DNA of 32,000 nt from Sinorhizobium meliloti (lineage in GTDB: Bacteria > Pseudomonadota > Alphaproteobacteria > Rhizobiales > Rhizobiaceae): NCBI RefSeq assembly GCF_017876815.1, contig NZ_JAGIOS010000003.1, positions 330,001-362,000 of the forward strand, given 5' to 3'. Positions within the stretch are counted from its first letter, which is position 1, and each line of letters starts with the position of its first letter. The position numbers and the translations under genes are program-made. The notes below the pieces were generated by a model. It saw nothing but the letters and a program-made list of their open reading frames with translations, was not told where the DNA came from and ran no database searches. This document shows, piece by piece, positions 62 to 20,560 of this stretch.

Positions 62-1156
62 TCAGCTGAGCTTGCCGATCATTCCCCTGACGAACCAGTT
101 CATCCCCCGGATGTCGGTATCCGAAAGAACCGACCCGGCAGCGACCTTGGTGTTGCCGTCCTGGTCCTTGAGCTCGCCGGCATAGGGATGGATCTTGCCC
201 GCTGCGATATCGGCTTCGAGCTGCTTCAATTTGGCCTGGATGTCGGCAGGGATCGCCTCGTTATAGGGGGCCATCTTGACCACGCCGGCGGCAAGCCCAT
301 CCCAACGCGCCTCGGCCTTCCAGGTGCCCTCCGCGACGCCTTTTGCGGCACGCAGATACTCACTGGACCAGTCGAGCGTAAAGGCCGTGAGTTGTTTGCC
401 GGAGCCGAACTTGGCCATGTCGCTGGCGTAGCCGATCGACCAGGCGCCGCCTTCGCCGGCCACCTGTACGCCGGTTGCCGTATCGGTCATCGAACAGATG
501 ACGTCGCAGCCTTGCGACAGCAGCGTATTGGCGGCTTCCTTCTCCTTGCCCGGGTCGAACCAGGAGTTGAGGAAGATGGCGTTGCAGGTGACCTCCGGAT
601 TGACGCTCTGCGCGCCGAGAAGAAGCGCATTCGCCGGCCCGACAATGTCCGGGATCGGGAAGCCGCCGATGAAGCCGATCTTGCCGGACTTGCTCATATG
701 CCCGCCGGCAGCGCCCGCGACGAAGGTGCCCTCGTAATATTTGGCCTCGAAGGTGCCGAGGTTTGCGCGGTGCACGATGCCCGAACAGTGTTCGAAGGCC
801 GTCTTGGGGAAGCGCGGCGCCACCTTCTGCATCGGCGTGCCGTGCGAGAAGCTGGTCCCGAAAATCAGCTGATTTCCCGAGGCGGCGAGCTCGCGGAAGA
901 CGCGCTCGGCATCCTGGGGCATGAAGATGTTGTCGATGACCGTTATGGCGACTTTGTCGCCGAATTCCTTCTTGATCGCGTCGACGCCCAGGCTGTGCTG
1001 TTTGGTCCAGCCAATCTCGGCGATCGGCGAGACATAGACGACGCCGATCTTGAGCGGCTCCTCTGCGCCCGCGAAGCTGGCAAGGCTTCCGGTTCCGAGT
1101 GCCACACCGGTCGCGCCGGAATATCGAAGGAATTGTCGTCTGGTCAGGTTGAACAT
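62..1156 (-). CDS. BMP-family (Bmp/PnrA-like) ABC transporter substrate-binding protein with a Tat-type leader
   Basis: 364-aa ORF. N-terminal twin-arginine leader TRRQFLRYSGATGVALG. The body resembles the basic-membrane-protein/nucleoside-binding SBP family (KIGVVYVSPI, GFIGGFPIPDIV, NSWFDPGKEKEAA). An SD-like AAAGGGG lies upstream of the ATG at 1156. Confidence 0.85.
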   Translation of the reverse strand: MFNLTRRQFLRYSGATGVALGTGSLASFAGAEEPLKIGVVYVSPIAEIGWTKQHSLGVDAIKKEFGDKVAITVIDNIFMPQDAERVFRELAASGNQLIFGTSFSHGTPMQKVAPRFPKTAFEHCSGIVHRANLGTFEAKYYEGTFVAGAAGGHMSKSGKIGFIGGFPIPDIVGPANALLLGAQSVNPEVTCNAIFLNSWFDPGKEKEAANTLLSQGCDVICSMTDTATGVQVAGEGGAWSIGYASDMAKFGSGKQLTAFTLDWSSEYLRAAKGVAEGTWKAEARWDGLAAGVVKMAPYNEAIPADIQAKLKQLEADIAAGKIHPYAGELKDQDGNTKVAAGSVLSDTDIRGMNWFVRGMIGKLS

Positions 1157-1209: not shown

Positions 1210-1980
1210 CTATTTCGTGGCGTGAACGTGGCGACCCGCGCCGGTCCAGCCGCTTTCTCCCGTTTTCCTGCGCGGCGCCGGCTTAGGCGCCTCGTCGGCT
1301 TTGCCGTCGAGATAGGGCTGAAGCGCCTCCCGCGGCGTCAGCTCCGGAAAGACCTGCCGATCCATGATATAACCGCGTACGACGCTGCGGTGATGGGTGT
1401 CGATCAGTTCCATGACGGGCTTCAGCCGGCCCTTTTCGAGCAGATCGATCACGCGCTGGTGGTCGTCCAGCAGATTGCAATAGTCGAAATCGGCGGAGAT
1501 CAGTGAGCGCAGGAGCGTGGTGCGCCGCACGAGCTGCGCGTGAATTTCCTGCATGACCTTGTTTCGGCTGAGGCGAACGAAGAGAGTATGAAACTCCTGG
1601 CCGAGAACGTCGGCAAGCGCGTCGTTGCCGGATGCGACGGCCTGGCGTTGCCGCTCCACGTGCTGGCGCAACTCGGCGAAGCCGGCGGGCCCGAGCCGGT
1701 CGCAGAGCTGGGCGGCGACGCCCTGTTCCACGAGCGTCAGCGCGTCGTATATCTCCATCGCCTCTTGCATGCTCGGGCGCGCGACGAAGGCGCCGCGATT
1801 GCGCTCGATCTGCGCCAGCCCGTCGTCGGCAAGCCTGATCAGCGCCTGGCGGATGACGATGCGGCTGACCTCGAAGATTTCCGCAAGTTCGCGCTCGCCG
1901 AGCTTGCATCCGGGTACGAGCCGGTGATCGATGATCGCCCGGGTCAGGATATCGGCAATCGCCTGCGAACGGCTGCTCAT
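1210..1980 (-). CDS. GntR-family transcriptional regulator (FadR/FCD subfamily)
   Basis: N-terminal winged HTH (LGERELAEIFEVSRIVIRQALIRLADDGL) followed by an all-helical FCD-like C-terminal domain. The ORF track starts at 1995 (MERPVMSS). The ATG at 1980 has a well-spaced GGAGAG SD, whereas the 1995 ATG has GGGAG directly abutting it. The start is therefore 1980 or 1995. Confidence 0.85.
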   Translation of the reverse strand: MSSRSQAIADILTRAIIDHRLVPGCKLGERELAEIFEVSRIVIRQALIRLADDGLAQIERNRGAFVARPSMQEAMEIYDALTLVEQGVAAQLCDRLGPAGFAELRQHVERQRQAVASGNDALADVLGQEFHTLFVRLSRNKVMQEIHAQLVRRTTLLRSLISADFDYCNLLDDHQRVIDLLEKGRLKPVMELIDTHHRSVVRGYIMDRQVFPELTPREALQPYLDGKADEAPKPAPRRKTGESGWTGAGRHVHATK

Positions 1981-2131
1981 GACGGGTCTCTCCATCTCCC
2001 GCAGAAAATCTGCGGGACGGTCGCACCGGAATGTTGCATGGCCACATATCCGGCGTTACGAATTCCATATCGGTATTCAATCAAATCAAGCTGTCAATCA
2101 AAAAACACGTTTTGCCATGCAAATTTTCATT

Positions 2132-2146
2132 GATTGGTATCCAATC
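2132..2146. promoter_or_regulatory. Candidate GntR operator: perfect palindrome GATTGG-TAT-CCAATC in an AT-rich divergent promoter region
   Basis: 6-bp arms with a 3-bp spacer, read directly from the sequence. It lies between the divergent GntR gene and the oxygenase operon. Flanking motifs are TCAATCAAA at 2078-2086 and 2094-2102, with a near-complement TTGATTGG at 2130-2137. Confidence 0.4.
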
Positions 2147-2211
2147 TTGTGGTTCCAATGAGTCCATCAAGGAGCTAGGTTCATCGGGAAGTGCTAGCCA
2201 GGGAGGGTGCG

Positions 2212-3078
2212 ATGAGCAGAACTGCCCTTTGTAGCGATCGAGTTCTTCTTAATGACTGGCATGTCGTTGCGGACCTGACGAACCTGTCGTCGACCGCGCC
2301 CTTTCACACCCGCCTGCTCGGTGTTGATCTCACCATCCACTGTGGTGGGCGCTATCGCCGACAGGTGGTTCGCAGCGATGGCGGCGAGCCGGTGAATTCC
2401 GACAGCCGTTACGGTTTTCTCTGGGCTTGTCTCGGCACGCCCGAGCGCGACATCGTCTTCGTGCCGGAGGCGAACGAGGCGGGCCGTTATCTCGTGACCG
2501 GTGGATCGATCGCCGTGAACGTCTCGGGGCTGCGCGCGGTCGAGAACTTCCTAGACATGGGGCACTTTCCTTTCATTCACACGGGCTGGCTCGGTGAGGA
2601 ACCGCACACCGAGGTCGCGCCCTACAAGGTCGAGCTTACCGACGCCGACGAGGTCATGGCGACCGAATGCAAGTTCTATCAGCCGGTCGCATCGCCAACA
2701 GCGAAGGAAGGCTTCGTCGTCGATTACATCTACAAGGTGATCCGTCCGTACACGGTGGCGCTTTACAAGAGCAATCCTGTTCATAAGGCGCGGCTCGACG
2801 TAATCACGCTCTTCGTGCAGCCGGTTGACGAGGAACGCTGCATCGCCCATCCGTTCCTCTGCTACCTGAAGGAAGGCGTCAGCGAGGCCTCGATCCGCAG
2901 CTTCATGCAATTGATCTTCGCCCAGGACAAGCCGATCCTGGAAAATCAGCTGCCGAAAAGGCTGCCGCTTGACCCGCGCGCCGAAACCCCGATCCGAGCC
3001 GATGCCGTTTCCGTCTATTACCGCCGATGGCTGCGCGATCGCGCGGTCACCTTCGGCGCGATCCCGGCCCGGATGTAA
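2212..3078 (+). CDS. Rieske-less oxygenase catalytic subunit (VanA/NdmC-like non-heme Fe domain), paralog 1
   Basis: Mononuclear-iron motif ENFLDMGHFPFIH (D-x2-H-x4-H) at nt 2542-2580. C-terminal FAQDKPILENQ motif (putative third Fe ligand Asp). The N-terminal ~100 aa keep Rieske-fold flanks (NDWHVV..., RYGFLWACLG) but lack the C-x-H...C-x2-H cluster ligands. ATG at 2212 is preceded by GGGAGGG. The ORF-track GTG start at 2191 is less likely. Confidence 0.8.
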   Translation: MSRTALCSDRVLLNDWHVVADLTNLSSTAPFHTRLLGVDLTIHCGGRYRRQVVRSDGGEPVNSDSRYGFLWACLGTPERDIVFVPEANEAGRYLVTGGSIAVNVSGLRAVENFLDMGHFPFIHTGWLGEEPHTEVAPYKVELTDADEVMATECKFYQPVASPTAKEGFVVDYIYKVIRPYTVALYKSNPVHKARLDVITLFVQPVDEERCIAHPFLCYLKEGVSEASIRSFMQLIFAQDKPILENQLPKRLPLDPRAETPIRADAVSVYYRRWLRDRAVTFGAIPARM

Positions 3079-3108
3079 CCGCCTTATGATCAGACGCCAT
3101 TCACGGAG

Positions 3109-4023
3109 ATGAACGACATGAGCCCGACCAAATGCCAGGACCAGGTGGTTCTCGATCTTTGGCACCCGCTGGCGGCGCTGGAGGAGATGCCGGCGAGGAC
3201 GGTTCAGGATACGGTGCTGCTCGAGGAACGCATCAGCTATGTCTCGGACGGCGAAGGCAAGGCGGCCGCCTGGCATTCGCGCCCGGAGCTCCCTGCCGGC
3301 AGCCGGGTCGATATCGATACGCTCGACGGCGGTCTTCCGGTCAAGATGGCCTACGGGTATATCTGGACCTCGCTGGGCACGCCGCCGGCCGAGCTGTTCG
3401 CGATTCCGGAATATGCGGAGTCTGACCGTCGCAGACTGAATGCTGCCAGCATCGGCGTCAATGTCTCGGCGCCGCGCGCGATCGAGAATTTCCTCGACAT
3501 GGGCCATTTCCCCTATGTCCACACCGACATTCTCGGAGCCGAACCGCACACGGAGGTCAAGGAGTACGACGTCGAGCTTTCGGTCGAGCGCGATGAGATC
3601 GTCGCCACGCGCTGTCGCTTCTTTCAGCCGATGGCCTCGACCGCATCGACCGGCGGTGCCGATGTCGAGTACATCTATCGGGTGCCGCACCCCTACTGCT
3701 CGGTGCTTTACAAATCCAGCCCCGTCGACGAGAGCCGCCTCGACGTCATCGCCGTTTTCCTTCAGCCGGTCGATCAGGAGCATGTCCGCGCGCATATGAT
3801 GCTCTGTGTCCTCGACGAAGAGAACGAAGACAAGGTGATCAAACGCTTCCAGCAAACGATCTTCGGCCAGGACAAGCCGATCCTGGAAAACCAGTTTCCG
3901 AAGCGTCTCCCGCTCGACCCGCGGGCCGAGACGCCGATCCGCGCCGACAAGTCTGCGATCGCCTACCGCCGTTGGCTCAGCCAGAAGGGCGTGACCTACG
4001 GGGTCATCCCGGCCGCCACCTGA
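3109..4023 (+). CDS. Rieske-less oxygenase catalytic subunit (VanA/NdmC-like), paralog 2
   Basis: IENFLDMGHFPYVH at nt 3481-3522 and FGQDKPILENQFPKRLPLDPRAETPIRAD. The latter is nearly identical at protein level, and partly at DNA level, to paralog 1. There are no Cys/His Rieske ligands in the N-terminal third. The alternative start ATG 3118 has better spacing to GGAG. Confidence 0.8.
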   Translation: MNDMSPTKCQDQVVLDLWHPLAALEEMPARTVQDTVLLEERISYVSDGEGKAAAWHSRPELPAGSRVDIDTLDGGLPVKMAYGYIWTSLGTPPAELFAIPEYAESDRRRLNAASIGVNVSAPRAIENFLDMGHFPYVHTDILGAEPHTEVKEYDVELSVERDEIVATRCRFFQPMASTASTGGADVEYIYRVPHPYCSVLYKSSPVDESRLDVIAVFLQPVDQEHVRAHMMLCVLDEENEDKVIKRFQQTIFGQDKPILENQFPKRLPLDPRAETPIRADKSAIAYRRWLSQKGVTYGVIPAAT

Positions 4024-4047
4024 CGTTTCAGAATTCTGGAGAGAACG

Positions 4048-5814
4048 ATGCTCGATACCGCCAAGACCAGATGGCATCCCGTTGCCGCATCCTATGATCT
4101 GCCGTTCCGCCACATCTTTCATGCCCAGTTGCTCGGCCGCGAGTTCGCCGTCTGGCGTGCCGACGACGGCTACGTCAATATCTGGGAGAACCGCTGTCTG
4201 CACCGCGGCGTCCGCCTTTCGATCGGCATCAACGATGGCCGTGAGTTGAAGTGCCAGTATCATGGCTGGCGCTATTCCAACCGCACCGCCGGCTGTACCT
4301 ATATTCCGGCGCACCCGGCCGACGCTCCGGCCCGCACCATTACCAACCGTACCTTTGCGAGCGTCGAGCGCTATGGCCTCGTCTGGACGGCGGAGGAGCC
4401 TCAAGGGGACGTGCCGGAAGTTACAGGCCTCGCCGAAGGCGATCTTCTCACCCTTCGCGGCATTCCGGTCAATGCGCCGGCCGATGTCGTGGTGGCGGCT
4501 CTGACAGGCTACCGCTTCCAGCCGAACGGCCGCCTCGAAGGCAGAGCGGCGGATATGTCGCTAAAGGCGAGCGACGGCTTCTCGGTGGCGCTCACGGCCC
4601 GCGAAGAGGGCGCCGAGACGCTTGCCGTGTTCTTCGTCCAGCCGGTCGACTCCAACCGTTCGGTCATCCGCGGCGTACTCGATTCCTCGCCGCGCGGCGC
4701 CGAGCGGCTTACCGTCCTGCACCACCACAACGAACGGCTTTCGAAGCTTCGCGAGATCGTGGAGCGCGAGGCTCAAGCCGCACCGCAGCCGGCGCCGCTC
4801 GAGCCGGTGATCGAGCGCGTTTCGCCGGAACTGGCCGAGCTGCCGGAGATGACCGCCCACGGCCGCAAGGCGACGATCCGTGTCACGGTCGCGCGAAAGT
4901 GGATGGCCGCGGACGGGATCGCGGCGTTCGAGCTTCGCCCGATCAAGGGCCTGCTGCCGACTTTCCAGCCCGGCGCCCATATCGACGTGCACATGCCGAA
5001 CGGGCTGATCCGGCAATATTCGATCACCAATGGCCCGGGCGAAAGCGACAGCTACGTCATCGGGGTCAAGCTGGAACGGGAATCGAAGGGCGGCTCGCGA
5101 TGCATGCATGAGACGCTTCGCGAGGGCGACGTCCTGGCGATTTCGGAGCCGCGCAACAATTTCCCGCTGCGTCGCGATGCCGAGAAGACGATTTTCGTCG
5201 CCGGCGGCATCGGCGCCACGCCGCTGATTGCCATGGCACAGGCTCTTAAGAACCAGAGCCTGGACTTCGCCTTCCACTACTTCGCCCAGAACCAGGCACA
5301 GCTCGCCTTTCCGGAAAAGACCGCTCTCCTCGGCGAGGCGCTGAAGCCCCAGCTCGGGCTCGACCCGGAAGGGACTGCCGCTAAGCTCAAGGACATTCTT
5401 TCCGGGTATCGGCCCGGCATGCATGTCTATCTCTGCGGTCCGGGGCCTATGCTCGAGGCGGCGCGCCGGATCGCTGCGGAGGTCGGCTGGCCGGAAACTG
5501 CGGTGCATTTCGAGTATTTCAAGAACACCAATACGATAGACGACAGTTCGAGCTTCGAGGTGGCGCTGGCGCGCTCCTGCGTGACATTTAAGGTGCCGGC
5601 CGGCAGGACCATCCTCGATGTGATGCGCGAAGTCGGGATCGACATGCCGTCATCCTGCGAGCAGGGTGCCTGCGGCACCTGTCTTGCGACCGTGATCGAG
5701 GGTGAGCCCGATCACCAGGACGTCTATTTGAACGACGCCGAGCGCAAGTCCGGCACCAAGATCATGACCTGCGTGTCGCGCGCCAAATCCGCGCGCCTCG
5801 TCCTCGATCTCTAG
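4048..5814 (+). CDS. Fusion protein: N-terminal Rieske [2Fe-2S] domain + degenerate oxygenase-like middle domain + phthalate-dioxygenase-reductase-type module (flavin/NAD(P)H binding + plant-type [2Fe-2S]); NdmD-like
   Basis: Rieske ligands C50-L-H52 (CLHRG) and C69-Q-Y-H72 (CQYHGW). FNR-family motifs RQYSITN and GGIGATP. C-terminal ferredoxin motif CEQGACGTC plus a downstream Cys (IMTCVS). GGAGAG SD before the ATG at 4048. Confidence 0.85.
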   Translation: MLDTAKTRWHPVAASYDLPFRHIFHAQLLGREFAVWRADDGYVNIWENRCLHRGVRLSIGINDGRELKCQYHGWRYSNRTAGCTYIPAHPADAPARTITNRTFASVERYGLVWTAEEPQGDVPEVTGLAEGDLLTLRGIPVNAPADVVVAALTGYRFQPNGRLEGRAADMSLKASDGFSVALTAREEGAETLAVFFVQPVDSNRSVIRGVLDSSPRGAERLTVLHHHNERLSKLREIVEREAQAAPQPAPLEPVIERVSPELAELPEMTAHGRKATIRVTVARKWMAADGIAAFELRPIKGLLPTFQPGAHIDVHMPNGLIRQYSITNGPGESDSYVIGVKLERESKGGSRCMHETLREGDVLAISEPRNNFPLRRDAEKTIFVAGGIGATPLIAMAQALKNQSLDFAFHYFAQNQAQLAFPEKTALLGEALKPQLGLDPEGTAAKLKDILSGYRPGMHVYLCGPGPMLEAARRIAAEVGWPETAVHFEYFKNTNTIDDSSSFEVALARSCVTFKVPAGRTILDVMREVGIDMPSSCEQGACGTCLATVIEGEPDHQDVYLNDAERKSGTKIMTCVSRAKSARLVLDL

Positions 5815-5824: not shown

Positions 5825-6472
5825 ATGATCACCCTCTACGATTACGAACTCTCGGGCAACTGCTACAAGCTCAGACTTCTGATGAGCATGCTCGGCATCG
5901 AGTACAAGACGGTACCGGTCGATTTCTATCCCGGCCGCGAACACAAGTCGGATTGGTTCCTGAAGCTCAATCCGCTTGGACAACTCCCGGTGATCGAGGA
6001 TGACGGACTGGTGCTGCGCGACGCGCAGGCGATCCTCGTCTACATCGGCTCCAAATATGATCCTTCCGGCACCTGGTATCCGCGTGACAACCCGGCGCTG
6101 CTCGGCGAGATCAGTCAGTGGCTCGCCTTTGCGGACGGGATCACGGGCACGGCTTCGGCCGCGCGTCTCCATGACGGCCTGTTCTACGAACTGGACGTCG
6201 AGGCGGCTCGGGCCGGTGCGCATAGGCTGTTTCGCATCCTCGACGAGCATCTCTGGTTCGGCGAGCAGGAAGGGCGCGACTGGATCTGCTCGGCCCCACA
6301 CCCGACCGTCGCTGACATCGCCTGTTTCCCCTACATCATGCTGTCGGAAGAGGGGGGCATTCCCCGGCAGGACTATCCGGCAATCCGTCGTTGGTGCGAT
6401 CGCCTCAAGCGGATCAAAGGCTTCACGGTCATGTCGGGGATTTTTCCTGCCGGCCCGGCGCGTGCCGCTTGA
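5825..6472 (+). CDS. Glutathione S-transferase family protein (positional NdmE analogue)
   Basis: 215-aa ORF with a thioredoxin-like N-terminal domain (LYDYELSGNCYKLRLLMSMLGIEY, LNPLGQLPVIEDDGLVLRDAQAILVYI) and a helical C-terminal domain. It starts 10 nt after the reductase stop, and an AGGAG overlaps that stop. Confidence 0.85.
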   Translation: MITLYDYELSGNCYKLRLLMSMLGIEYKTVPVDFYPGREHKSDWFLKLNPLGQLPVIEDDGLVLRDAQAILVYIGSKYDPSGTWYPRDNPALLGEISQWLAFADGITGTASAARLHDGLFYELDVEAARAGAHRLFRILDEHLWFGEQEGRDWICSAPHPTVADIACFPYIMLSEEGGIPRQDYPAIRRWCDRLKRIKGFTVMSGIFPAGPARAA

Positions 6473-8743: not shown

Positions 8744-9667
8744 TTAAGCATCTCGCGTTCCCTCGGAATCTGGTGTGCCATGGTGTCGCAGGGCGTCCAC
8801 GATCACCTTGAATGCGGGTGAGTTGTGGTGTCGGCTAGGGTAGTAAATGTAGTACCCGGCAAACGGAGGCGACCAGGGCTCGAGCAGCGCTACCAGGCGT
8901 CCTGCCGCAATGTGCCCCGCGACGAGATCTTCCGGCAGATAGGCTATGCCGTGACCTTTCATGGCGGCATCGACCATGGGGTATGAGCTATTGAAGGTGA
9001 GTTGTCCGTCGACCCTGACGCGGAGCTCTTGCCCGTTCTTCTCGAACTCCCATACATAATGTCCGCCGCCTGTTGCCTGGCGCGAGTTGATGCAATTGTG
9101 CTGGATCAGTTCCTGTGGATGCTCTGGCAACGGACGATCTGCCAGGTAGTCGGGCGAAGCCACTGCCAGAAGCCGCCAGTCCGGTCCGATACGGACCGCG
9201 ATCATGTCCTTTTCGACGCTCTCGCCGAGGCGAATGCCTGCGTCGAAACCATCTTCCACGATGTTCCTGAAGCCGTTGTCCCTGCTCAACTCGAGCCGAA
9301 TGTCGGGGTATTCCAGAAGAACCGGCTGTAGTTTCGGCCAGACGAGGCTCTCCAGGGCGTGGTCGGACAAAGTGATTTTGACCGAGCCGGACGGTTTGTC
9401 GCGAAAGGCCATAAGGGCCGCGATTTCGTCCCTTATGGCCGATATCCGCGGCGCCAGCGAACGAAGCAGGCGCTCGCCAGCTTCCGTCACGGCAACGCTC
9501 CGGGTGGTCCTGGTCAGAAGCCTCAGGCCCATCCTCGTTTCGAGGCGCTTGATCGTGTGACTGAGCGTCGATTGGGTTATGCCGAGCTTGGCAGCGGCCC
9601 TGGTGAAGCTGCGCTCCTCGGCCACGGCGAGAAACCACAGCAGATCGTTGAAGTCTTCCTTGGGCAT
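8744..9667 (-). CDS. LysR-family transcriptional regulator
   Basis: N-terminal HTH (FLAVAEERSFTRAAAKLGITQSTLSHTIKRLE) plus a LysR substrate-binding domain. Divergent from the Mo-hydroxylase operon. Confidence 0.9.
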   Translation of the reverse strand: MPKEDFNDLLWFLAVAEERSFTRAAAKLGITQSTLSHTIKRLETRMGLRLLTRTTRSVAVTEAGERLLRSLAPRISAIRDEIAALMAFRDKPSGSVKITLSDHALESLVWPKLQPVLLEYPDIRLELSRDNGFRNIVEDGFDAGIRLGESVEKDMIAVRIGPDWRLLAVASPDYLADRPLPEHPQELIQHNCINSRQATGGGHYVWEFEKNGQELRVRVDGQLTFNSSYPMVDAAMKGHGIAYLPEDLVAGHIAAGRLVALLEPWSPPFAGYYIYYPSRHHNSPAFKVIVDALRHHGTPDSEGTRDA

Positions 9668-9826
9668 ACTCTACATCCGCACGCTCGATTTATGGTTCAT
9701 GTCGATAGATGTAAGAGAACTATGCCCACTAATCCATAGGCTATGCTTTTGCTACCGTCCCAGCTGAAACAGTTTGCTCGCTGTTTCCGCGCCCGTTTTC
9801 CCGCAAGCTGCATTGAGGACACCGCC

Positions 9827-10273
9827 ATGGAACTCACCACCAACGGCTTTAGACACCAGGTGGACATCGAGCCGGATACGCCGCTGCTCTGGGTTCTTCG
9901 CGATGAACTCGGCATGACCGGAACCAAATATGGTTGCGGCCTCGCCCAGTGCGGCGCCTGCACGGTTCTCGTCGACGGACAGGCGACGCGCTCCTGCGTC
10001 ACTGCGGTGGAGAGCGTTGCCGGTTCCGAGATCATGACCATCGAGGCCATCACCGAAGATCCAGTGGGCCAGAAAGTAGTCGAGGCATGGGTTTCCAATC
10101 AGGTACCTCAATGCGGCTACTGTCAGTCGGGCCAGGTCATGGCCGCGACGGCGCTCATAAAGCAGAGTCCTCGGCCGAGCGACGAGGACATTGCCGGCGC
10201 AATGATCAATCTCTGTCGCTGTGGCACCTATAACGCCATTGCGGCTGCCGTCCGGCAGGCCGCTGAGGCTTGA
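9827..10273 (+). CDS. (2Fe-2S)-binding small subunit of a molybdenum hydroxylase (IorA/CoxS-like)
   Basis: Motifs GCGLAQCGACTV and CGYCQSGQ. ATG at 9827 is preceded by GAGGAC. The ORF-track start at 9743 adds an implausible 28-aa extension. Confidence 0.85.
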   Translation: MELTTNGFRHQVDIEPDTPLLWVLRDELGMTGTKYGCGLAQCGACTVLVDGQATRSCVTAVESVAGSEIMTIEAITEDPVGQKVVEAWVSNQVPQCGYCQSGQVMAATALIKQSPRPSDEDIAGAMINLCRCGTYNAIAAAVRQAAEA

Positions 10274-10287
10274 TCGGGAGCGACACC

Positions 10288-12531
10288 ATGAACGACATGA
10301 CACCGGTTACCTCTGAAATCACTGCCAGCGAGATCGGCAAGCCCTTCAAGCTTTCTCGGCGAGGCTTTCTCGGCGCCTCGCTCGGCGCCCTCGTCCTCGG
10401 CGTCACTCTTCCGGCCGGCCGGGCCAGAGCGCAGGCAGCCGCTGCGGCCATAACGCCCGGCACCCGGATTTCCGCATTTCTGGAGATCCTGCCCGACGAG
10501 ACCGTCCTGTTCCGCAGTGCTTTCATCGAGGGAGGGCAGGGCATATTCACCGCCATGGCGCAGATCGTCGGTGAGGAACTGGACGTCGACCCGATGCAGT
10601 TCGTCGTCGAAGGCGCGCCTCCGGGTCCCGATTATCTGCTGACCGGCGGCGGGCGGTTCACCGGCGGCAGCATGTCCGTGCGCATGAGCTACGACGCCAT
10701 GCGTAAGCTCGGCGCTTCCGCGCGCCACATGCTCATTCAAGCCGCTGCGGTACGGCTGCGCGTGCCGGTATCGGAGCTGTCGACGGAGCCCGGCCGCGTC
10801 GTGCACGGCGCTTCGGGGCGGACCCTTCCATACGGTGAGATCGCGGATGCGGCAGCGGGCTTGCCGCTCCCCACCAATGTCGTGCTGCGCGCTCGCGCAG
10901 ACTTCCGCTGGATCGGCAAGCCGGTCGCGCGGCTCGATGTGCGCGACAAGTCGACGGGCAAGGCTCGGTACGCAATCGATTTGAAAGTCGACGGAATGCT
11001 GCATGCCGCGGTCCAGCACAGCCCGCGTCTCGGTGGCGAGCCCGGTGCTTTGCAGAATGAAGCGGACGTGCGCGGCATGCCCGGCGTCCATTCCATTCAC
11101 AGCCTGCCCGGCACCGTCGCCGTGGTCGCCGATAGCTGGTGGCGCGCGCGCATGGCAGCCGAAGCCCTGCAGGTGACCTGGACGGAGCCGACTCGCGGAA
11201 CGGCCCACGTCATGCCGGCGGATTTTTCCACCGAGGCGCACATGGCGATGCTGAAGGCGACGCCGGGGGAGGGCGTCGCCTACGAGACCGTCGGGAATGC
11301 TGCAACAGCGCTTGGTGATGCTGCGCGGGTGGTCGAGGCGACTTATGACGCGCCATATCTGGTGCATGGGCAACTCGAGCCGCCATCCGCGCTTGCGCGC
11401 TGGAACGACGACGGCTCGCTCGACCTCTGGGTTCCCAATCAGGCACCGGAGATGTTTCAGGCAGAGGCCGCGAAGGTAGCCGGCATCGCGCCGGAGAAGG
11501 TCACCATCCACTCGCCGATGCTCGGCGGCTTCTTCGGGAGGCATTTCCTCTATCAAACGGCCAATCCGTTCCCACAGGCGATCCTGCTTGCAAAGGCTGT
11601 CGCTCGGCCGGTCAAACTCATCTGGAGCCGCGAGGAGGAGTTCCTGCGAGACACCCTGAGGCCGATGGGCGCCGTTCGTTTCCGCGCCGGGCTCGACGCC
11701 GAAGGATTGCCGGTGGCACTGGAGGCGGTGGCGGTGGGCGAAGGTCCGACGGGCCGCTGGTTCGGCCGCCAGCCGGACAAGGTCGATAGTTCTTCCGTCG
11801 AGGGCATTGCGGGCAAAGTCTATTCGATCCCCAACCGGCATGTCGGCCAGGTTCATGTGGACGACCCCACGATCATCGGCTTCTGGCGGTCCGTCGGTCA
11901 CTCGATGAACGACTTCTTCTACGAGACGTTCTTCGACGAGATGGCCGATGCGGGTCAGCAGGATCCTTACGAATTGCGGCGGCGTCTCCTCGCGGACAGC
12001 CCGCGGCACAGAGCCCTGCTGGAAGCCGTGGCCGAGCTCTCCGGCGGTTGGCGGCGAGGACCGTTCATGGCGGACGACGGCACGCGCCGCGCCCGGGGCG
12101 TGGCCATGGCCTCACCCTTCGGCAGCGAGGTGGCGACGATTGCCGAAGTGTCGTTGCGGAGCGGCGAGGTCGTCGTGCACGACGTCTGGGTGGCTATCGA
12201 TCCGGGCAGTATCGTCAATCCGGCGATTATCGAGGCACAGGTGAACTCGGCCGTCGCGCTCGGACTTTCCTCGGCTTTGCTGGAAGAGGTCGTCTATGTC
12301 GACGGCATGCCGCAGGCCCGCAACTACGATGGCTATCCGATTTTGACGCCGGATCGCATGCCGCGGGTTCATGTGCGGATCGTAGCAAGCGGCGCTCCCA
12401 TGGGCGGCATTGGCGAGCCCGGTTTGCCCGGGGTGCCTCCGGCCATCGCAAACGCCGTTTCCGTTCTGGCAGGCCGGCGCGTTCGAAGCCTGCCGCTGTC
12501 CAAACACGATTTCAAAGGAGTCGACGGTTGA
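10288..12531 (+). CDS. Molybdopterin-binding large subunit of an aldehyde/isoquinoline oxidoreductase-type hydroxylase (IorB-like), Tat signal
   Basis: Twin-arginine leader SRRGFLGASLGALVLGV. ~750 aa with xanthine-dehydrogenase-family blocks by eye. Probable start ATG 10288 after GGGAG. The ORF-track start 10270 overlaps the upstream stop. Confidence 0.85.
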   Translation: MNDMTPVTSEITASEIGKPFKLSRRGFLGASLGALVLGVTLPAGRARAQAAAAAITPGTRISAFLEILPDETVLFRSAFIEGGQGIFTAMAQIVGEELDVDPMQFVVEGAPPGPDYLLTGGGRFTGGSMSVRMSYDAMRKLGASARHMLIQAAAVRLRVPVSELSTEPGRVVHGASGRTLPYGEIADAAAGLPLPTNVVLRARADFRWIGKPVARLDVRDKSTGKARYAIDLKVDGMLHAAVQHSPRLGGEPGALQNEADVRGMPGVHSIHSLPGTVAVVADSWWRARMAAEALQVTWTEPTRGTAHVMPADFSTEAHMAMLKATPGEGVAYETVGNAATALGDAARVVEATYDAPYLVHGQLEPPSALARWNDDGSLDLWVPNQAPEMFQAEAAKVAGIAPEKVTIHSPMLGGFFGRHFLYQTANPFPQAILLAKAVARPVKLIWSREEEFLRDTLRPMGAVRFRAGLDAEGLPVALEAVAVGEGPTGRWFGRQPDKVDSSSVEGIAGKVYSIPNRHVGQVHVDDPTIIGFWRSVGHSMNDFFYETFFDEMADAGQQDPYELRRRLLADSPRHRALLEAVAELSGGWRRGPFMADDGTRRARGVAMASPFGSEVATIAEVSLRSGEVVVHDVWVAIDPGSIVNPAIIEAQVNSAVALGLSSALLEEVVYVDGMPQARNYDGYPILTPDRMPRVHVRIVASGAPMGGIGEPGLPGVPPAIANAVSVLAGRRVRSLPLSKHDFKGVDG

Positions 12532-12896
12532 ACAAGGTCGTCATTGCTGCGCTCGTTTCTCTTGCTGTTTCAGGCCACGCCACGCCGGCTCTGTCTCAGG
12601 AGGCTGCGCCAGGTCAGAAGCTGTTTCAGCAACGCTGCGGTGCGTGCCATCAGCTCGAGACACCTCGAAACGGCGTCGGACCGCATCTGCTGGGTGTCGT
12701 CGGCCGAACGGCCGGCAGCGTTGACGGCTTCAGGTATTCCGCGGCTCTTAAAGGTTCCGGTTTCGCATGGACCGCCGAAACGCTGGAAACCTTCCTGAGC
12801 AATCCCGCCGCGATGGTTCGCGGAACGCGCATGGCCCAGCGTTTCAACAACGCCGACGAGCGTCGAGCGATCATCGCGTTCCTTAGGGCGCAATAG
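12528..12896 (+). CDS. Class I c-type cytochrome subunit, Sec signal peptide
   Basis: Heme motif CGACH and a distal Met region. Signal peptide KVVIAALVSLAVSGHATPALSQEA. TTG start overlaps the IorB stop (TTGA) and is preceded by AAAGGAG at 12514-12520. The upstream part of the track ORF starting at 12048 lies inside iorB. Confidence 0.75.
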   Translation: MNKVVIAALVSLAVSGHATPALSQEAAPGQKLFQQRCGACHQLETPRNGVGPHLLGVVGRTAGSVDGFRYSAALKGSGFAWTAETLETFLSNPAAMVRGTRMAQRFNNADERRAIIAFLRAQ

Positions 12897-13124: not shown

Positions 13125-13692
13125 ATGACGAATCCAACATTCGGCGAGACAATCGTCAAAACCGCCGCGGCCTGGGGCGCAGTGGCGTCCATGGCGCTGT
13201 GCGTTGCAGTGCTGATCGCTTCGGAATTCATGCCGGTCAGCCTCCTGACGCCGATCGCCCGTGATCTTGGTATGAGCGAGGGCCAGGCCGGACAGGCGAT
13301 TTCGATCTCCGGTCTGTTCGCCGTGTTGACCAGTCTCTTCATTGCGGGGTTCACGCGGAAGATCGACCGCAAGTTCGTCCTGTCCTCGTTCTCGCTCATG
13401 CTGATCGTCTCGGGGCTCGTCGTATCCTTCGCCCCCAATTACGCGGCTCTGATGGTCGGTCGGGCGCTGCTCGGCGTTGCCATCGGCGGATTCTGGTCGA
13501 TGTCCACCGCGGTCGTCATGCGCCTCCTGCTGGAGAGTGCGGTGCCGGAGGGCCTTGCGTTGCTGAATGCCGGCAACGCTATCGCTGCCACGATCTCCGC
13601 TCCGCTCGGCAGCTTTCTGGGATTACATCGGCTGGCGGGGCGCGTTCTTCTTCGTGGTTCCGCTGGCGCTCATTGCGCGCCGCGGGTCTTGA
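13125..13692 (+). pseudogene. MFS transporter remnant (N-terminal ~6 TM), frameshifted near 13620 and truncated
   Basis: The first ~165 aa are MFS-like (LTPIARDLGMSEGQAGQAISISGLF, GRALLGVAIGGFWS). After ...GSFLG the expected continuation DYIGWRGAFFFVVPLALIA is present only in the +1 frame (13621-13677). That frame stops at 13690-13692. No second six-helix half follows. Confidence 0.7.
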
Positions 13693-13754
13693 TCGGCGGC
13701 GCCATCACCAGGGCCGTACTGCCGCGCCTGGTATGGGCTCAAAAGGAGACTAAC

Positions 13755-14105
13755 ATGAAGATGCGCATTGCCTTTGCCGATCACGTGTTCACGGCTACGC
13801 TCTACGACAGCCCCCCGGCGCGCGACCTCTGGTCGATGCTCCCGCTCGAGCTGGAGATCGACAATTACGCCAACAACGAGAAGATCGCCTATCTGCCCCG
13901 AAAGCTGACGGAGGAAGGCAGCGGTTCGTTCTCCAACGAAGCCCCGGGCGACCTCTGCTACTATGCTCCCTGGGGTAATCTGGCATTCTTCTACGCTGGC
14001 TATCGCTACTCGGCCGGTCTGATCCGGCTTGGCCGGCTGGATGGCGGCGTCGAACCTTTGCTCACACGCGGAAAGTTTCCACTCCGCATCGAACGACTGT
14101 CCTGA
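13755..14105 (+). CDS. Small cyclophilin-like-fold protein (116 aa)
   Basis: MKMRIAFADHVFTATLYDSPPARDLWSMLPLELEIDNYANNEKIAYLP...GDLCYYAPWGNLAFFY resembles the cyclophilin-like superfamily of small proteins. It has its own AAGGAG SD at 13743-13748. It shares a frame with the upstream remnant, which explains the fused track ORF. Confidence 0.65.
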   Translation: MKMRIAFADHVFTATLYDSPPARDLWSMLPLELEIDNYANNEKIAYLPRKLTEEGSGSFSNEAPGDLCYYAPWGNLAFFYAGYRYSAGLIRLGRLDGGVEPLLTRGKFPLRIERLS

Positions 14106-14165: not shown

Positions 14166-16586
14166 TCACATTCGAAGCCTTTCGCCTGCGGGGTCGAAGG
14201 GCGGCCGTTCCAGGATGACTGCGTCATGGGCGCGGCCGAGGATCGCAACACTCACCTTGTTACCCGGTTTCGCCATTTCAGCCTTGATGTAGCAGAGCGC
14301 TAGCGACATGCCGACCGTATAGCCGTAGGCGCCGGATGAAACCTGGCCGATCGGGGTGCCGTCCCGGAGAAAGATCGGCTCGCCGCCGGTGGCGTCCGCA
14401 TCCGTGGCGTCGATCGATATCATGGCGAGCTTCTGCCTCGGAAGCTTCCCTGCGATTTCCTGGTAAGGGGCCTTGTTCAGGAACACGTCCTTGTCGAGCT
14501 TGATCAGCCGGTCGAGAGCGCATTCCTGCGGCCAGTATTCCGGCGAATACTCGCGGCTCCAGCTGCCATAGCCCTTTTCGATGCGCAGCGAGGCGAGTGC
14601 GCGTGAGCCGACCGGACCCGCGCCGAGATCCGCGCCGGCTTCCAGCAAGGCGTCGTAGAGCGCGACCTGCCTTTCGGCGTCGCAGTAGAGTTCCCAGCCG
14701 AGATCGCCGGTGAACGAGACGCGCAGCGCGATGACCTCGACGCCAGCGACGCGCATCCTGCGCGACCGCATGAAGGAGAAGTTCTCGTTGGAAAGGTCGT
14801 CATTCGTCAGGCGCATCAGCAATTCGCGCGATTTCGGCCCGGCGATGTTGAAGGCGCAAAGGCGCTCCGTGAGCGAGGTGAAGGTCGTGTCGTCGGGAAG
14901 CGGAACCGCATTGAAGAAGCGCTGATGGTAGCGTTCCGCCATGCCTGAGCCGAAGATCATGAACTCGTCGTCGCCGAGCTTCGTCACCGTGAAATCCCCG
15001 GCGATGCCGCCCCGCTTGCCGATGAGAGGCGTCAGGCACGAGCGGCCGACCCCAGTAGGCATGCGGTTGGCAAAAAGCGCGTTCAGCCAGTCGGAGGCAC
15101 CCGCTCCCTTCACTGCGTATTTCGCAAAGTTCGAGATGTCGATAATGCCGGCGCTTTCGCGCAGCATGCGGGCCTCGCGGCCGACGGGCGCCCACCAGTT
15201 CTGGCGGGTAAAACCGATCGTCTCTTCCTTCGGCTCGCCCTCGGCGGAAAACCAGAGCGGATGCTCCCAGCCGAAATTCAGGCCGAAGACGGCGCCCGTT
15301 GCCTTCTGTTTCTCATAAGCCGGCCGGGTGCGAACGGGTCGTCCGGCTGCCCGCTCCTCATTGGGAAAGTGGATCTTGAAACGGTGGCTGTACTGGTCCT
15401 GGACGCGCGCCTTGGTGAAGGCCTTGTTCGCCCAGTGACCGAAGCGCGCCATGTCCCAGCCGAACATGTCGAGCGACGGCTCGCCCTCGATCATCCATTC
15501 CGCTGCAAGCTTGCCCATCCCGCCCGACTGCGAGAATCCGGGGATGATGCCGTTGCAGCAGAAATAATTCGTCATTTCCGGTACCGGACCGAAGAGGACC
15601 GCGCTATCTGGCGACCAGATCATCGGCCCGTTGATGACGCGCTTGATGCCCGCCGTTCCGACCACCGGCACGCGATCGATCGCGCGCATCATATTTTCCT
15701 CGATGCGTTCAAGGTCGTCGGGGAAGAGTTCGTGACCGAAACCGAGCGGCGTGCCGTCCTCGGCCCAGAAGCGCATGTCGCGCTCATAGGCGCCGATCAG
15801 GAGGCCCAGGCCCTCCTGCCGCAGGTAATACTCGCCGTCGCGATCAGCGACGGAGGGAAGCCGCCGGTCAAGGGCGGCGATCTCCGCTATGGTCTCGGTG
15901 ACGAAATACTGGTGTTCCGTCGGCATCAGCGGAAGTTCGAGGCCCGCCATGGCGGCGACTTCACGGCCCCACAATCCTGCGGCGTTGACCACCCACCGGG
16001 TGCGTATGTCGCCTTTCGGGGTGCGCACGATCCAGCTGCCGTCCGCTTGCGCCTCCGTACCGGTGACGGGCGTGAAGCGGTGTATTTCGGCGCCGCGCCT
16101 GCGCGCGCCTGCGGCATAGGCCATCGTCACACCGGAGGGGTCGACATTGCCGCCCTCCGGCTCGTACATGATGCAGCGGATGCCGTCGAAGTTGACGAGC
16201 GGATGCAGCCGCTCGGCCTCGTCACGGCCGATCTCGTAGAAGTTCATCTTGTAGCGGCGCGCCTTGGCCTCTTGGAGCCGGAGCTGGTGCTCGCGCGCCT
16301 CGGTCTGAGCAAGATAGAGCGATCCCGGCTGGAAGATGCCGCATCCTTGCCCGGTCTCGACCTCCAGCTCCTTGTAGAGCGCCATCGTATAATGCTGAAG
16401 CAGGCTGATATTGGTGGAGTCGTGCAGGCCGTGGATGTTGGCGGCCGCATGCCAGGTCGACCCTGATGTCAGTTCGCTCCGCTCGAGAAGCACGACGTCG
16501 GACCAGCCGAGCTTGGTGAGATGGTAGAGAATGGAGCAGCCGATGAGACCGCCGCCGATGACGACCGCTTGAGCGTGGGAGCGCAT
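14166..16586 (-). CDS. FAD-dependent oxidoreductase fused to a GcvT-type folate-binding domain (dimethylglycine/sarcosine dehydrogenase family)
   Basis: 806 aa. N-terminal dinucleotide fold VVIGGGLIGCSILYHL, with HAAANIHG close by. C-terminal aminomethyltransferase-like half (ISNFAKYAVKG, GYGSWSREY...). Length and architecture are typical of DMGDH/SARDH. Confidence 0.85.
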   Translation of the reverse strand: MRSHAQAVVIGGGLIGCSILYHLTKLGWSDVVLLERSELTSGSTWHAAANIHGLHDSTNISLLQHYTMALYKELEVETGQGCGIFQPGSLYLAQTEAREHQLRLQEAKARRYKMNFYEIGRDEAERLHPLVNFDGIRCIMYEPEGGNVDPSGVTMAYAAGARRRGAEIHRFTPVTGTEAQADGSWIVRTPKGDIRTRWVVNAAGLWGREVAAMAGLELPLMPTEHQYFVTETIAEIAALDRRLPSVADRDGEYYLRQEGLGLLIGAYERDMRFWAEDGTPLGFGHELFPDDLERIEENMMRAIDRVPVVGTAGIKRVINGPMIWSPDSAVLFGPVPEMTNYFCCNGIIPGFSQSGGMGKLAAEWMIEGEPSLDMFGWDMARFGHWANKAFTKARVQDQYSHRFKIHFPNEERAAGRPVRTRPAYEKQKATGAVFGLNFGWEHPLWFSAEGEPKEETIGFTRQNWWAPVGREARMLRESAGIIDISNFAKYAVKGAGASDWLNALFANRMPTGVGRSCLTPLIGKRGGIAGDFTVTKLGDDEFMIFGSGMAERYHQRFFNAVPLPDDTTFTSLTERLCAFNIAGPKSRELLMRLTNDDLSNENFSFMRSRRMRVAGVEVIALRVSFTGDLGWELYCDAERQVALYDALLEAGADLGAGPVGSRALASLRIEKGYGSWSREYSPEYWPQECALDRLIKLDKDVFLNKAPYQEIAGKLPRQKLAMISIDATDADATGGEPIFLRDGTPIGQVSSGAYGYTVGMSLALCYIKAEMAKPGNKVSVAILGRAHDAVILERPPFDPAGERLRM

Positions 16587-16821
16587 GGAAATCCAGCCTT
16601 GAAACGATGACCTGTGCCGCCGGCGGATCTCTGCCGGCGCGGCTCCAGTTTAGGGACGGGCCGTTTTTTGCAAAGCTGCGTAATGCGGGAAATCGGGCCC
16701 TTTTGTCATCGGATGGACAAATAAAACGAGGTCATTGATCTCGCAATTTTCGTTTGTTGCGCGGCAAGTTCCGGCTAGTTTGAAATCGGCCCTTTCCGGC
16801 ATCGAGCCAACGGGTCACCGG

Positions 16822-17709: not shown

Positions 17710-17753
17710 CTGAAGTTCCCTTTTGTGCGACGCTAGCCTGCCCGCTCCGGCAC

Positions 17754-19469: not shown

Positions 19470-19476
19470 GGGGCAG

Positions 19477-20469: not shown

Positions 20470-20560
20470 TGAAGCCGCGCGGATTCTGGCATAGATCCTG
20501 CGGAATCGGCGCAAATGCGCGCTCCGACTCTTCTCCATCCTGCTGGAAAAGGAGAATGTC

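What the first reader, a model, noticed from the sequence alone, without database searches (positions are those of the whole stretch)
2212..4800. Reciprocal domain decay among three paralogous oxygenase modules implies an obligate hetero-oligomer
All three proteins begin with a Rieske-fold-like segment flanked by W-H-x-V/L-A and by RYGF/YGYIW/RYGLVW.
- Only the third keeps the cluster ligands. In the first two, the ligand loops are deleted or replaced.
- The third protein has a middle segment (about aa 118-250, nt ~4399-4800) that still resembles the catalytic domain of the other two. Compare LAVFFVQPVDSNRSVIRGVL with ITLFVQPVDEERCIAHPFL and IAVFLQPVDQEHVRAHMML.
- That middle segment lacks the D-x2-H-x4-H and QDKPILE iron-ligand motifs.

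So the operon holds two subunits with Fe but no Rieske centre, and one with a Rieske centre but no Fe.

In alpha3 Rieske oxygenases the electron passes from the Rieske cluster of one subunit to the iron of the neighbouring subunit. Complementary loss therefore fits a mixed trimer, or a docked complex, in which the reductase-borne Rieske domain serves one or two distinct active sites.

The tandem paralogs share long identical blocks (DKPILENQxPKRLPLDPRAETPIRAD), which argues for purifying selection rather than pseudogenisation.
Basis: partly seen in the sequence, partly recalled or inferred. Interest (0 to 1): 0.75.

Follow-up and report, generated by a model that had tools for sequence, protein, structure and literature searches.

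The report
Split Rieske oxygenase operon, NdmCDE-like
This Sinorhizobium meliloti pSymA operon encodes an oxygenase whose iron-sulfur centre and catalytic iron sit on separate, mutually degenerate sister proteins plus a glutathione-transferase-like partner, an arrangement already known from the bacterial caffeine demethylase NdmCDE and here duplicated in its catalytic subunit.

Summary
P1 (2212-3078) and P2 (3109-4023) are VanA/NdmA-type catalytic subunits. They keep the Asp/His/His/Asp iron site but have lost the Rieske cluster-binding loops, leaving a remnant of the Rieske fold. P3 (4048-5814) has an intact Rieske domain, then a shrunken, ligand-less catalytic-type domain (aa ~118-250), then a phthalate-dioxygenase-reductase-type module.

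Profile-profile comparison with controls, two confident AlphaFold models and Foldseek all support this reciprocal decay.

- the GST-like gene immediately downstream (5825-6472);
- the precedent. This is the NdmC/NdmD/NdmE architecture of Pseudomonas putida CBB5, and ndmCDE-like clusters in Sinorhizobium were already noted in 2013.

A hetero-oligomer is therefore very likely. A three-way complex that needs both paralogs is not supported. P2-P3-GST is the conserved core. P1 belongs to an old, separately conserved clade that many genomes lack, and it was cleanly deleted in S. medicae.

Possibly new points:
- the N-terminal 250 residues of the reductase form a whole degenerate alpha subunit, not just a Rieske domain;
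- the same module exists free-standing (~250 aa) in triads with a Rieske-less oxygenase and a GST.

The substrate is unknown; I infer an N-methylated heterocycle. Verdict: new member of a known kind, moderate interest.

The parts
62..1156 (-). BMP/PnrA-family ABC-transporter substrate-binding protein with a TAT signal. Probable uptake component for the substrate.
   Evidence: Pfam Bmp 4.9e-43. It travels with GntR and the oxygenase genes in the Rhizobiales-type loci.
1210..1995 (-). GntR/FCD-family regulator, divergently transcribed.
   Evidence: Pfam GntR + FCD. Conserved next to the operon in related loci.
2132..2146 (.). Inverted repeat GATTGG-TAT-CCAATC in the GntR-P1 intergenic region. 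Candidate operator (inference).
   Evidence: Sequence read. Picked up as a stem by the terminator scan. Not tested further.
2212..3078 (+). P1, NdmC-like catalytic subunit, accessory paralog (C1 clade). The Rieske-fold remnant is aa ~1-75. The VanA_C-type catalytic domain has D115, H118, H123 and D239.
   Evidence: SD-like AGGGAGGG lies upstream of ATG 2212.
3109..4023 (+). P2, NdmC-like catalytic subunit, core paralog (C2 clade). The Rieske-fold remnant without cluster loops is aa ~10-100. The catalytic domain has D130, H133, H138 and D255. Another strain's annotation starts the gene at the ATG equivalent to 3118.
4048..4398 (+). P3 aa 1-117: intact Rieske [2Fe-2S] domain (C50, H52, C69, H72).
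   Evidence: Pfam Rieske 2.8e-16. The ligands are invariant in 50 relatives. dN/dS 0.04-0.10 against the closer orthologs.
4399..4797 (+). P3 aa 118-250: shrunken catalytic-type domain (strands plus a long helix) without iron ligands.
   Evidence: BLASTP against P1, E 6e-4. hhalign probability 89-90%. AF2 model and Foldseek. dN/dS 0.25-0.37 against the closer orthologs.
4798..5814 (+). P3 aa 251-588: linker, then a phthalate-dioxygenase-reductase-type module (flavin/NAD(P)H-binding part and a plant-type [2Fe-2S] ferredoxin domain).
   Evidence: PDB 2pia E 1.7e-65 over aa 276-588. NdmD ferredoxin domain 6icm_D E 7.6e-19 over aa 503-588. Pfam Fer2.
5825..6472 (+). GST-like protein, the NdmE-like third subunit. 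It starts 10 nt after P3.
   Evidence: Pfam GST_N / GST_C_2. It lies next to the P3 homolog in 76 of 80 loci, and the other 4 are cut by a contig end. It is also present in the free-standing triads.

Best explanation
**What it is.** The operon P1-P2-P3-GST on S. meliloti pSymA encodes an NdmCDE-type split Rieske monooxygenase.

**Proposed mechanism.**
1. NAD(P)H reduces the flavin of P3's C-terminal phthalate-dioxygenase-reductase-like module.
2. Electrons pass through its plant-type [2Fe-2S] domain to the Rieske cluster at the N-terminus of the same protein.
3. From there they pass across a subunit interface to the mononuclear iron of a Rieske-less catalytic subunit, P2 or P1. The conserved Asp of the D-x2-H-x4-H motif is the likely bridge. 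This subunit hydroxylates, and thereby removes, an N- or O-methyl group.
4. The GST-like protein is a non-catalytic scaffold, as proposed for NdmE.

**Roles of the paralogs.** P2 is the core catalytic partner. P1 is an old paralog that most likely adds a second substrate or position specificity on the shared electron-donor module, as NdmA and NdmB share NdmD.

**Origin.** P1/P2 and the first 250 residues of P3 all descend from full-length SxtT/NdmA-like alpha subunits. They lost complementary halves, each keeping a structural remnant of the lost half. The Rieske-keeping copy also exists as a free ~250-aa protein elsewhere and is fused to the reductase here.

**Shown here:** domain content, ligand conservation, folds, selection and synteny.
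**Inferred:** the complex, the electron path, the role of the GST and the substrate class. I infer an N-methylated heterocycle taken up by the adjacent BMP-type ABC transporter.
For: **Domain content and homology**
- Domains.
- Rieske ligands are invariant in the P3 family.
- The iron ligands D130, H138 and D255 are kept in all 70 NdmC-like sequences and H133 in 69. None has Rieske ligands.
- Reciprocal remnants, with controls: hhalign probability 98.4% and 89.4% against 0.1-0.3%.
- AF2 models: pLDDT 92 and 82.5.
- Both models match full-length alpha3 oxygenases. P3 aa 1-275 has TM 0.70-0.73 normalised to the query. P2 has 0.73-0.78 normalised to the query and 0.71-0.73 to the target.

**Selection and synteny**
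- Purifying selection acts on every part. It is strongest on the Rieske and catalytic domains and relaxed, but below 0.5, on the remnants for the closer orthologs.
- The order NdmC-like, Rieske-reductase, GST is conserved in 80 loci from Rhizobiales, Rhodobacterales, Devosia, Gammaproteobacteria and Acidimicrobiia.
- Free-standing Rieske modules sit in the same triad in 5 of 6 sampled contigs.

**Literature on the prototype**
- NdmC lacks a Rieske cluster. NdmD carries an extra N-terminal Rieske cluster. NdmE, a GST-like protein, is required. ndmCDE-like clusters occur in Sinorhizobium and Mesorhizobium (PMC4408171).
- The NdmD Rieske ligands are C50 and C69, the same numbers as in P3 (bioRxiv 10.1101/2021.12.17.472166).
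- The complex is about 360 kDa, 3:3:3 (PMC10380055).
Against: - No NdmC, full-length NdmD or NdmE sequence was available, so orthology to the prototype rests on architecture, on the 87-residue NdmD ferredoxin domain in the PDB and on a review's statement.
- No complex was modelled. The interface and stoichiometry are inferred, and the NdmCDE structure was still unsolved in May 2026 (PMC13237722).
- The substrate is unknown. There are no ndmA/ndmB-like genes or xanthine-pathway genes nearby, and the surrounding island is about betaines.
- dS is near saturation for the more distant pairs, so those dN/dS values are rough.
Confidence: 0.8

Rival explanations
1. Obligate three-way assembly. P1, P2 and the N-terminal module of P3 form one mixed alpha-type trimer, and the enzyme needs both paralogs.
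For: All three are alpha-subunit-shaped. P1 and P2 are co-inherited as a tandem pair in 29 of 80 loci across distant proteobacteria, and both are under purifying selection. Two tandem VanA_C-only genes also occur in a free-standing triad.
Against: - Most related loci have a single NdmC-like gene next to P3-GST.
- S. medicae deleted P1 cleanly and kept P2-P3-GST under selection.
- A few loci appear to have only a C1-type gene, for example L041.
- In a head-to-tail 1:1:1 ring only one of the two iron sites would face the single live Rieske cluster (inference from alpha3 geometry).
- The prototype works with one NdmC.
Confidence: 0.12
2. The Rieske module of P3 is a functionless relic. P1 and P2 receive electrons directly from the plant-type ferredoxin domain, and the middle segment is only a linker.
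For: NdmA and NdmB do not need NdmD's Rieske cluster. Pfam sees nothing in the middle segment in any of 50 relatives.
Against: - The Rieske domain is the most constrained part of P3 (dN/dS 0.04-0.10 against the closer orthologs), and its ligands are invariant.
- The module persists as a free protein next to Rieske-less oxygenases with no fused reductase.
- The middle segment folds confidently (pLDDT mostly above 90) into a catalytic-type domain and has dN/dS well below 1.
- P1/P2 lack any cluster of their own.
- A review states that the NdmD Rieske domain is essential for NdmC.
Confidence: 0.04
3. P1 is a decaying duplicate, inactive or on its way to loss, and only P2 is functional.
For: P1 is absent from many genomes and deleted in S. 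medicae. Its Rieske remnant is shorter than that of P2.
Against: The reading frame is intact in all 46 near-identical S. meliloti plasmids. dN/dS of the catalytic domain is 0.06-0.17. All four iron-site residues are conserved in 17 of 17 C1-clade members. The C1 clade is old and monophyletic across orders.
Confidence: 0.04

Closest known systems
NdmCDE N7-demethylase complex of Pseudomonas putida CBB5 (Summers et al. 2013, as summarised in PMC4408171 and PMC10380055)
   Same: - A Rieske-less non-heme-iron catalytic subunit.
- A reductase with an extra N-terminal Rieske cluster, with Cys ligands at positions 50 and 69 in both, plus a flavin/NADH part and a plant-type ferredoxin domain.
- An adjacent GST-like gene.
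- The NdmD ferredoxin domain (6icm_D) matches P3 aa 503-588 at E 7.6e-19.
- Homologous clusters in Sinorhizobium were already noted.
   Different: - There are two catalytic paralogs in tandem (49% identical) instead of one.
- No ndmA/ndmB genes are nearby.
- The context is a BMP-type ABC transporter, a GntR regulator and a betaine-catabolism island rather than caffeine/xanthine genes.
- The substrate is unknown.
- Orthology to NdmC and NdmE could not be checked by sequence here.
Canonical alpha3 Rieske monooxygenases SxtT/GxtA, NdmA/NdmB, VanA
   Same: They are the best sequence and fold matches for both P1/P2 and the first 250 residues of P3. They share the D-x2-H-x4-H...D iron site and the Rieske CxH...CxxH motif.
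   Different: In these enzymes one polypeptide carries both centres. Here no polypeptide does: P1/P2 lack the cluster loops and P3 lacks the iron ligands.
Phthalate dioxygenase reductase / VanB-type reductases
   Same: P3 aa 276-588 aligns end to end with 2pia (E 1.7e-65).
   Different: P3 has an extra 275-residue N-terminal extension, consisting of a degenerate alpha subunit and a linker.

Membership tests
NdmCDE-type split Rieske oxygenase | Catalytic subunit with a VanA_C-type non-heme-iron domain and no Rieske cluster ligands | tested here: met
   Pfam finds VanA_C only. Of 70 sequences, 0 have CxH...CxxH. All 70 keep D130, H138 and D255, and 69 keep H133.
NdmCDE-type split Rieske oxygenase | [quoted passage not shown] | tested here: met
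   The Rieske Cys residues are at positions 50 and 69, as reported for NdmD.
NdmCDE-type split Rieske oxygenase | GST-like third gene in the same cluster | tested here: met
   Window 5825-6472. It is adjacent in 76 of 80 related loci.
NdmCDE-type split Rieske oxygenase | Sequence orthology to NdmC, NdmD and NdmE themselves | tested here: inconclusive
   Only the NdmD ferredoxin domain (6icm_D) was available, E 7.6e-19. Full NdmC/D/E sequences were not at hand. A review reports ndmCDE homologs in Sinorhizobium.
NdmCDE-type split Rieske oxygenase | The three proteins form one soluble complex (reported ~360 kDa, 3:3:3) | not testable with these tools
   Taken from the literature only. No multimer modelling was available.
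NdmCDE-type split Rieske oxygenase | N7-demethylation of 7-methylxanthine | not testable with these tools
   The gene context differs from the caffeine cluster. The substrate is probably different.
Canonical alpha3 Rieske oxygenase (SxtT/NdmA/VanA type) | Rieske cluster ligands and the mononuclear iron ligands in the same polypeptide | tested here: not met
   P1/P2 lack the cluster loops. The P3 middle domain lacks D-x2-H-x4-H and the Asp ligand.
Canonical alpha3 Rieske oxygenase (SxtT/NdmA/VanA type) | Two-domain alpha-subunit fold (Rieske domain plus helix-grip catalytic domain) | tested here: met
   Foldseek TM 0.70-0.78 to full-length SxtT/GxtA for both P3 aa 1-275 and P2.
Phthalate dioxygenase reductase family | Flavin/NAD(P)H-binding part followed by a C-terminal plant-type [2Fe-2S] domain | tested here: met
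   2pia E 1.7e-65 over P3 aa 276-588. Pfam Fer2 and NAD_binding_1.

The most novel reading that the evidence does not exclude
The NdmD-type 'extra Rieske domain' is in fact a complete but catalytically dead alpha-subunit paralog. It co-assembles with Rieske-less alpha paralogs through the ancestral alpha-alpha interface, scaffolded by a GST.

On this reading the system arose by gene duplication and complementary degeneration. It did not arise by splitting a Rieske domain off the oxygenase and fusing it to the reductase, as the literature describes it. Free-standing ~250-aa forms would then be surviving intermediates.

Together these would define a widespread three-protein class of split Rieske oxygenases, with a fused or a separate reductase and with one or two catalytic paralogs sharing one electron-donor subunit.
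Probability: 0.5. Interest if true: 0.55.

Novelty: new member of a known kind. Interest (0 to 1): 0.42.

Why it matters
The structure of the NdmCDE complex was still unsolved in May 2026, and its rhizobial relatives have no assigned function.

If both partners keep remnants of each other's lost domain, the subunit interface can be predicted: it should be the ancestral head-to-tail alpha-alpha contact. Clear mutational targets follow from that. It would also recast the system as a case of subfunctionalisation at the level of domains.

The S. meliloti / S. medicae pair is a natural P1 knockout. It could be used to find the substrates of these plasmid-borne demethylases, which sit in an island for plant-derived N-methyl compounds.

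Tried and rejected
- **Pfam on the middle segment.** A scan of 50 Rieske-module relatives found nothing beyond Rieske. Profile-profile comparison and structure prediction were needed.
- **AF2 with locus-derived sequences.** I used database hits instead (A3).
- **Apparent gene fusions.** The NdmC-like plus Rieske-module 'fusions' among the representatives (P0266, P0364) are frameshifted read-throughs, not Rosetta-stone evidence.
- **Finding NdmD by name.** Looking up cluster members gave only generic names.
- **Summers et al. 2013.** The paper could not be read, by DOI or by PMC id.
- **Literature on the rhizobial genes.** Searches on trigonelline, homarine and rhizobial ndm homologs gave nothing beyond the 2015 review.
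- **Strain 2011 annotation.** The pSymA record carries no annotation in the collection, so no SMa locus tags were obtained.
- **Trigonelline as substrate.** I considered it, but found nothing that links this locus to trigonelline catabolism.
- **Gene conversion.** I rejected it as the cause of the identical P1/P2 block, because the block differs at synonymous sites.


Full report
**Source and gene layout.** The window is 100% identical to pSmeSM11c of Sinorhizobium meliloti SM11, a pSymA-type megaplasmid, and more than 99% identical to 46 S. meliloti plasmids. The finding covers three tightly spaced + strand ORFs: P1 2212-3078 (288 aa), P2 3109-4023 (304 aa) and P3 4048-5814 (588 aa). A divergent GntR/FCD regulator (1210-1995) and a BMP/PnrA-family ABC substrate-binding protein (62-1156) lie upstream. 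A class-V aminotransferase lies downstream on the other strand.

Pfam sees only the VanA_C catalytic domain in P1 and P2. In P3 it sees Rieske, an FNR-like part and a plant-type Fer2 domain. P1 and P2 are 49% identical. For all three proteins the closest solved structures are the alpha3 Rieske monooxygenases SxtT/GxtA and NdmA/NdmB. P3 aa 276-588 aligns end to end with phthalate dioxygenase reductase at E 1.7e-65, and its last 86 residues match the NdmD ferredoxin domain at E 7.6e-19.

**P1 and P2 keep a Rieske remnant without the cluster loops.**
- A profile of the P1/P2 family matches SxtT in two pieces: profile positions 7-54 with SxtT residues 4-53, and positions 68-296 with residues 102-333. 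The 48 SxtT residues that hold the cluster loops therefore correspond to about 13 profile positions.
- The first 100 residues of 70 NdmC-like sequences match the Rieske profile of the P3 family at probability 98.4%, E 6.5e-15. A 32-column gap falls exactly over P3 residues 49-83, the CxH...CxxH segment.
- The AF2 model of P2 (pLDDT 82.5, above 90 over residues 10-110) matches full-length SxtT/GxtA. The TM score is 0.73-0.78 normalised to the query and 0.71-0.73 normalised to the target. That is more than the catalytic domain alone could give.
- None of the 70 sequences has Rieske ligands. All keep D130, H138 and D255, and 69 keep H133.

**P3's middle segment is a shrunken, ligand-less catalytic domain.**
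- Profile-profile comparison gives probability 89-90%, E 1-2e-6, against two versions of the catalytic profile. Cross-controls (middle segment vs Rieske; P1/P2 N-terminus vs catalytic domain) give 0.1-0.3%.
- The AF2 model of P3 aa 1-275 is confident (pLDDT 92, pTM 0.84). After the Rieske domain it shows short strands, a short helix, four strands and a long helix.
- Foldseek's top hits are full-length SxtT/GxtA (E about 6e-21, TM 0.70-0.73 normalised to the query, 280-296 columns) and NdmA (0.65-0.69). A Rieske domain alone could reach about 0.42 at most.
- The segment has none of the iron ligands. Its own near-invariant residues are R137, P199 and R235.

**All parts are under selection.** dN/dS was computed against orthologs, and dS is near saturation for the more distant ones, so the ranges below are for the closer orthologs.

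| Part | dN/dS |
|---|---|
| P2 catalytic domain | 0.03-0.10 |
| P1 catalytic domain | 0.06-0.17 |
| P3 Rieske domain | 0.04-0.10 |
| P3 reductase module | 0.10-0.22 |
| GST | 0.06-0.11 |
| P2 Rieske remnant | 0.2-0.46 |
| P3 middle domain | 0.25-0.37 |

The remnants are relaxed but still constrained, as expected for structural rather than catalytic roles. The 26-residue block shared by P1 and P2 is only 80% identical in nucleotides, with many synonymous differences. It therefore reflects selection on the protein, not recent gene conversion.

**Comparative context changes the interpretation.** A scan of species-representative genomes gave 80 loci from Rhizobiales, Rhodobacterales, Devosia, Gammaproteobacteria, Rhodospirillales and Acidimicrobiia.
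- A GST gene follows the P3 homolog in 76 loci. The other four are cut by the contig end.
- A P2-type gene almost always lies immediately upstream. A P1-type gene accompanies it in only 29 loci.
- In a neighbour-joining tree the P1-type and P2-type proteins form two deep, separate clades, each spanning several orders. The duplication is therefore old and both copies have been retained in parallel.
- P1 is nevertheless dispensable for the rest. In S. medicae the sequence equivalent to window ~2245-3039 is cleanly deleted, while P2-P3-GST remain intact and constrained.
- P2-P3-GST is therefore the core. P1 most likely adds a second specificity on the same donor module.

**The Rieske module is an evolutionary unit of its own.** An exhaustive search with P3 aa 1-275 found many free-standing proteins of ~220-280 aa that match across residues ~7-245. 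It also found ~585-aa fusions. In five of six sampled contigs the free module lies between, or next to, a VanA_C-only gene and a GST gene. One contig has two VanA_C-only genes in tandem. The sixth lies next to a TauD-family gene. Neighbours of these triads often include A_deaminase, Amidohydro_1, Bmp-type transporters and GCV_T genes. This is a weak hint at N-methylated purine-like or other N-heterocyclic substrates.

**Comparison with what is known.** This is the architecture of NdmCDE from Pseudomonas putida CBB5.
- NdmC is a non-heme-iron monooxygenase without a Rieske cluster.
- NdmD is a reductase with an extra N-terminal Rieske cluster.
- NdmE is a GST-like protein needed for solubility and activity.
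- According to a 2015 review, the 2013 paper already listed ndmCDE-like clusters of unknown function, predominantly in Sinorhizobium and Mesorhizobium (PMC4408171).
- The NdmD Rieske ligands are C50 and C69, the same positions as in P3.
- The complex is reported as about 360 kDa, 3:3:3 (PMC10380055). Its structure was still unsolved in May 2026 (PMC13237722).

The evidence here fits a different route better. A whole alpha-subunit gene was duplicated, the two copies lost complementary halves while each kept a remnant of the lost half, and the Rieske-keeping copy was later fused to the reductase in some lineages. I found no statement of this in the papers I could read, but I could not read the 2013 paper or the 2019 structural paper.

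**Mechanism.** The proposed path is NAD(P)H to flavin, to the plant-type [2Fe-2S] cluster, to the Rieske cluster of P3, then across an alpha-alpha-like interface to the iron of P2 or P1. The conserved Asp of D-x2-H-x4-H would act as the bridge and the GST as a scaffold. Domain content, ligands, folds, selection and synteny are shown here. Complex formation, geometry, the role of the GST and the substrate are inferred by analogy with NdmCDE and with alpha3 oxygenases. Whether P1 and P2 share one particle is open. The presence/absence data argue that neither needs the other.

**Verdict.**
A hetero-oligomer is likely, but an obligate three-paralog assembly is not, and both the GST and the NdmCDE precedent were missed.
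- Novelty: a new, uncharacterised member of a known kind.
- There is a modest new structural and evolutionary point: a dead catalytic domain in the NdmD-type module, free-standing triads, and two ancient catalytic clades.

Noticed in passing
window 14166-28397: A betaine-type catabolism island:
- a DMGDH-like FAD oxidoreductase with a GCV_T domain (14166-16586, -)
- a LysR regulator
- an MttB-family methyltransferase (17934-19469)
- an AraC/DJ-1-type regulator
- a creatinase/M24 hydrolase
- an isochorismatase
- an OpuA-type betaine ABC transporter
- an enolase-superfamily (MR/MLE) protein
- an Ldh_2-family dehydrogenase

From memory, the last two resemble proline-betaine / hydroxyproline-betaine catabolic genes.
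   Followed up: partly
window 8744-12896: A LysR regulator, then a three-part molybdenum hydroxylase: a [2Fe-2S] small subunit (9830-10276), a MoCo-binding large subunit (10270-12531) and a cytochrome c. It is of the isoquinoline-oxidoreductase / nicotinate-dehydrogenase type and could act on an N-heterocycle downstream of the demethylase.
   Followed up: partly
window 13125-14105; L001 23929-25568: In this strain a single 326-aa ORF joins the first ~165 residues of an MFS transporter to a cyclophilin-like domain. In strain R28 the two are separate genes (a 408-aa MFS protein and a cyclophilin-like protein). This suggests a deletion of ~0.66 kb in the SM11-type sequence.
   Followed up: partly
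window 28771-29409: A RES-domain protein, the toxin of RES-Xre type toxin-antitoxin pairs. The upstream partner was not examined.
   Followed up: no
L002 5796-6000 vs window 2045-3040: S. medicae carries a clean deletion of almost all of P1. Only the first ~11 and last ~13 codons remain. The same shortened match is seen in 12 S. medicae plasmids, and a similar one in Sinorhizobium sp. K101, C101 and M103 and in one S. meliloti plasmid.
   Followed up: yes
window 2132-2146: A perfect inverted repeat GATTGG-TAT-CCAATC between the GntR gene and P1. It is a candidate GntR operator.
   Followed up: no
L032, L034, L036, L038, L039, L042, L043, L058 (about 9.5-12.5 kb): In Acidimicrobiia, beside the GST gene, there is an additional intact Rieske oxygenase (Rieske plus catalytic domain) and a further Rieske-less NdmC-like gene. 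The layout recalls the full ndmA/B + ndmCDE set.
   Followed up: no
L089 2473-4174: One distant free-standing Rieske module (P0385, 30% identical) lies next to a TauD-family Fe/2-oxoglutarate dioxygenase instead of a VanA_C-only gene.
   Followed up: no
P0134, P0436: A 'Pseudomonas sp. Cab53' assembly holds P3 and P2 homologs 84% identical to the rhizobial proteins. This points to recent horizontal transfer or a mislabelled or contaminated assembly.
   Followed up: no
P0351: A 355-aa protein appears to join an NdmC-like N-terminus, whose catalytic domain lacks the His motif, to a Rieske module. It may be a real fusion of two degenerate modules. P0266 and P0364, by contrast, are clearly frameshifted.
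   Followed up: partly
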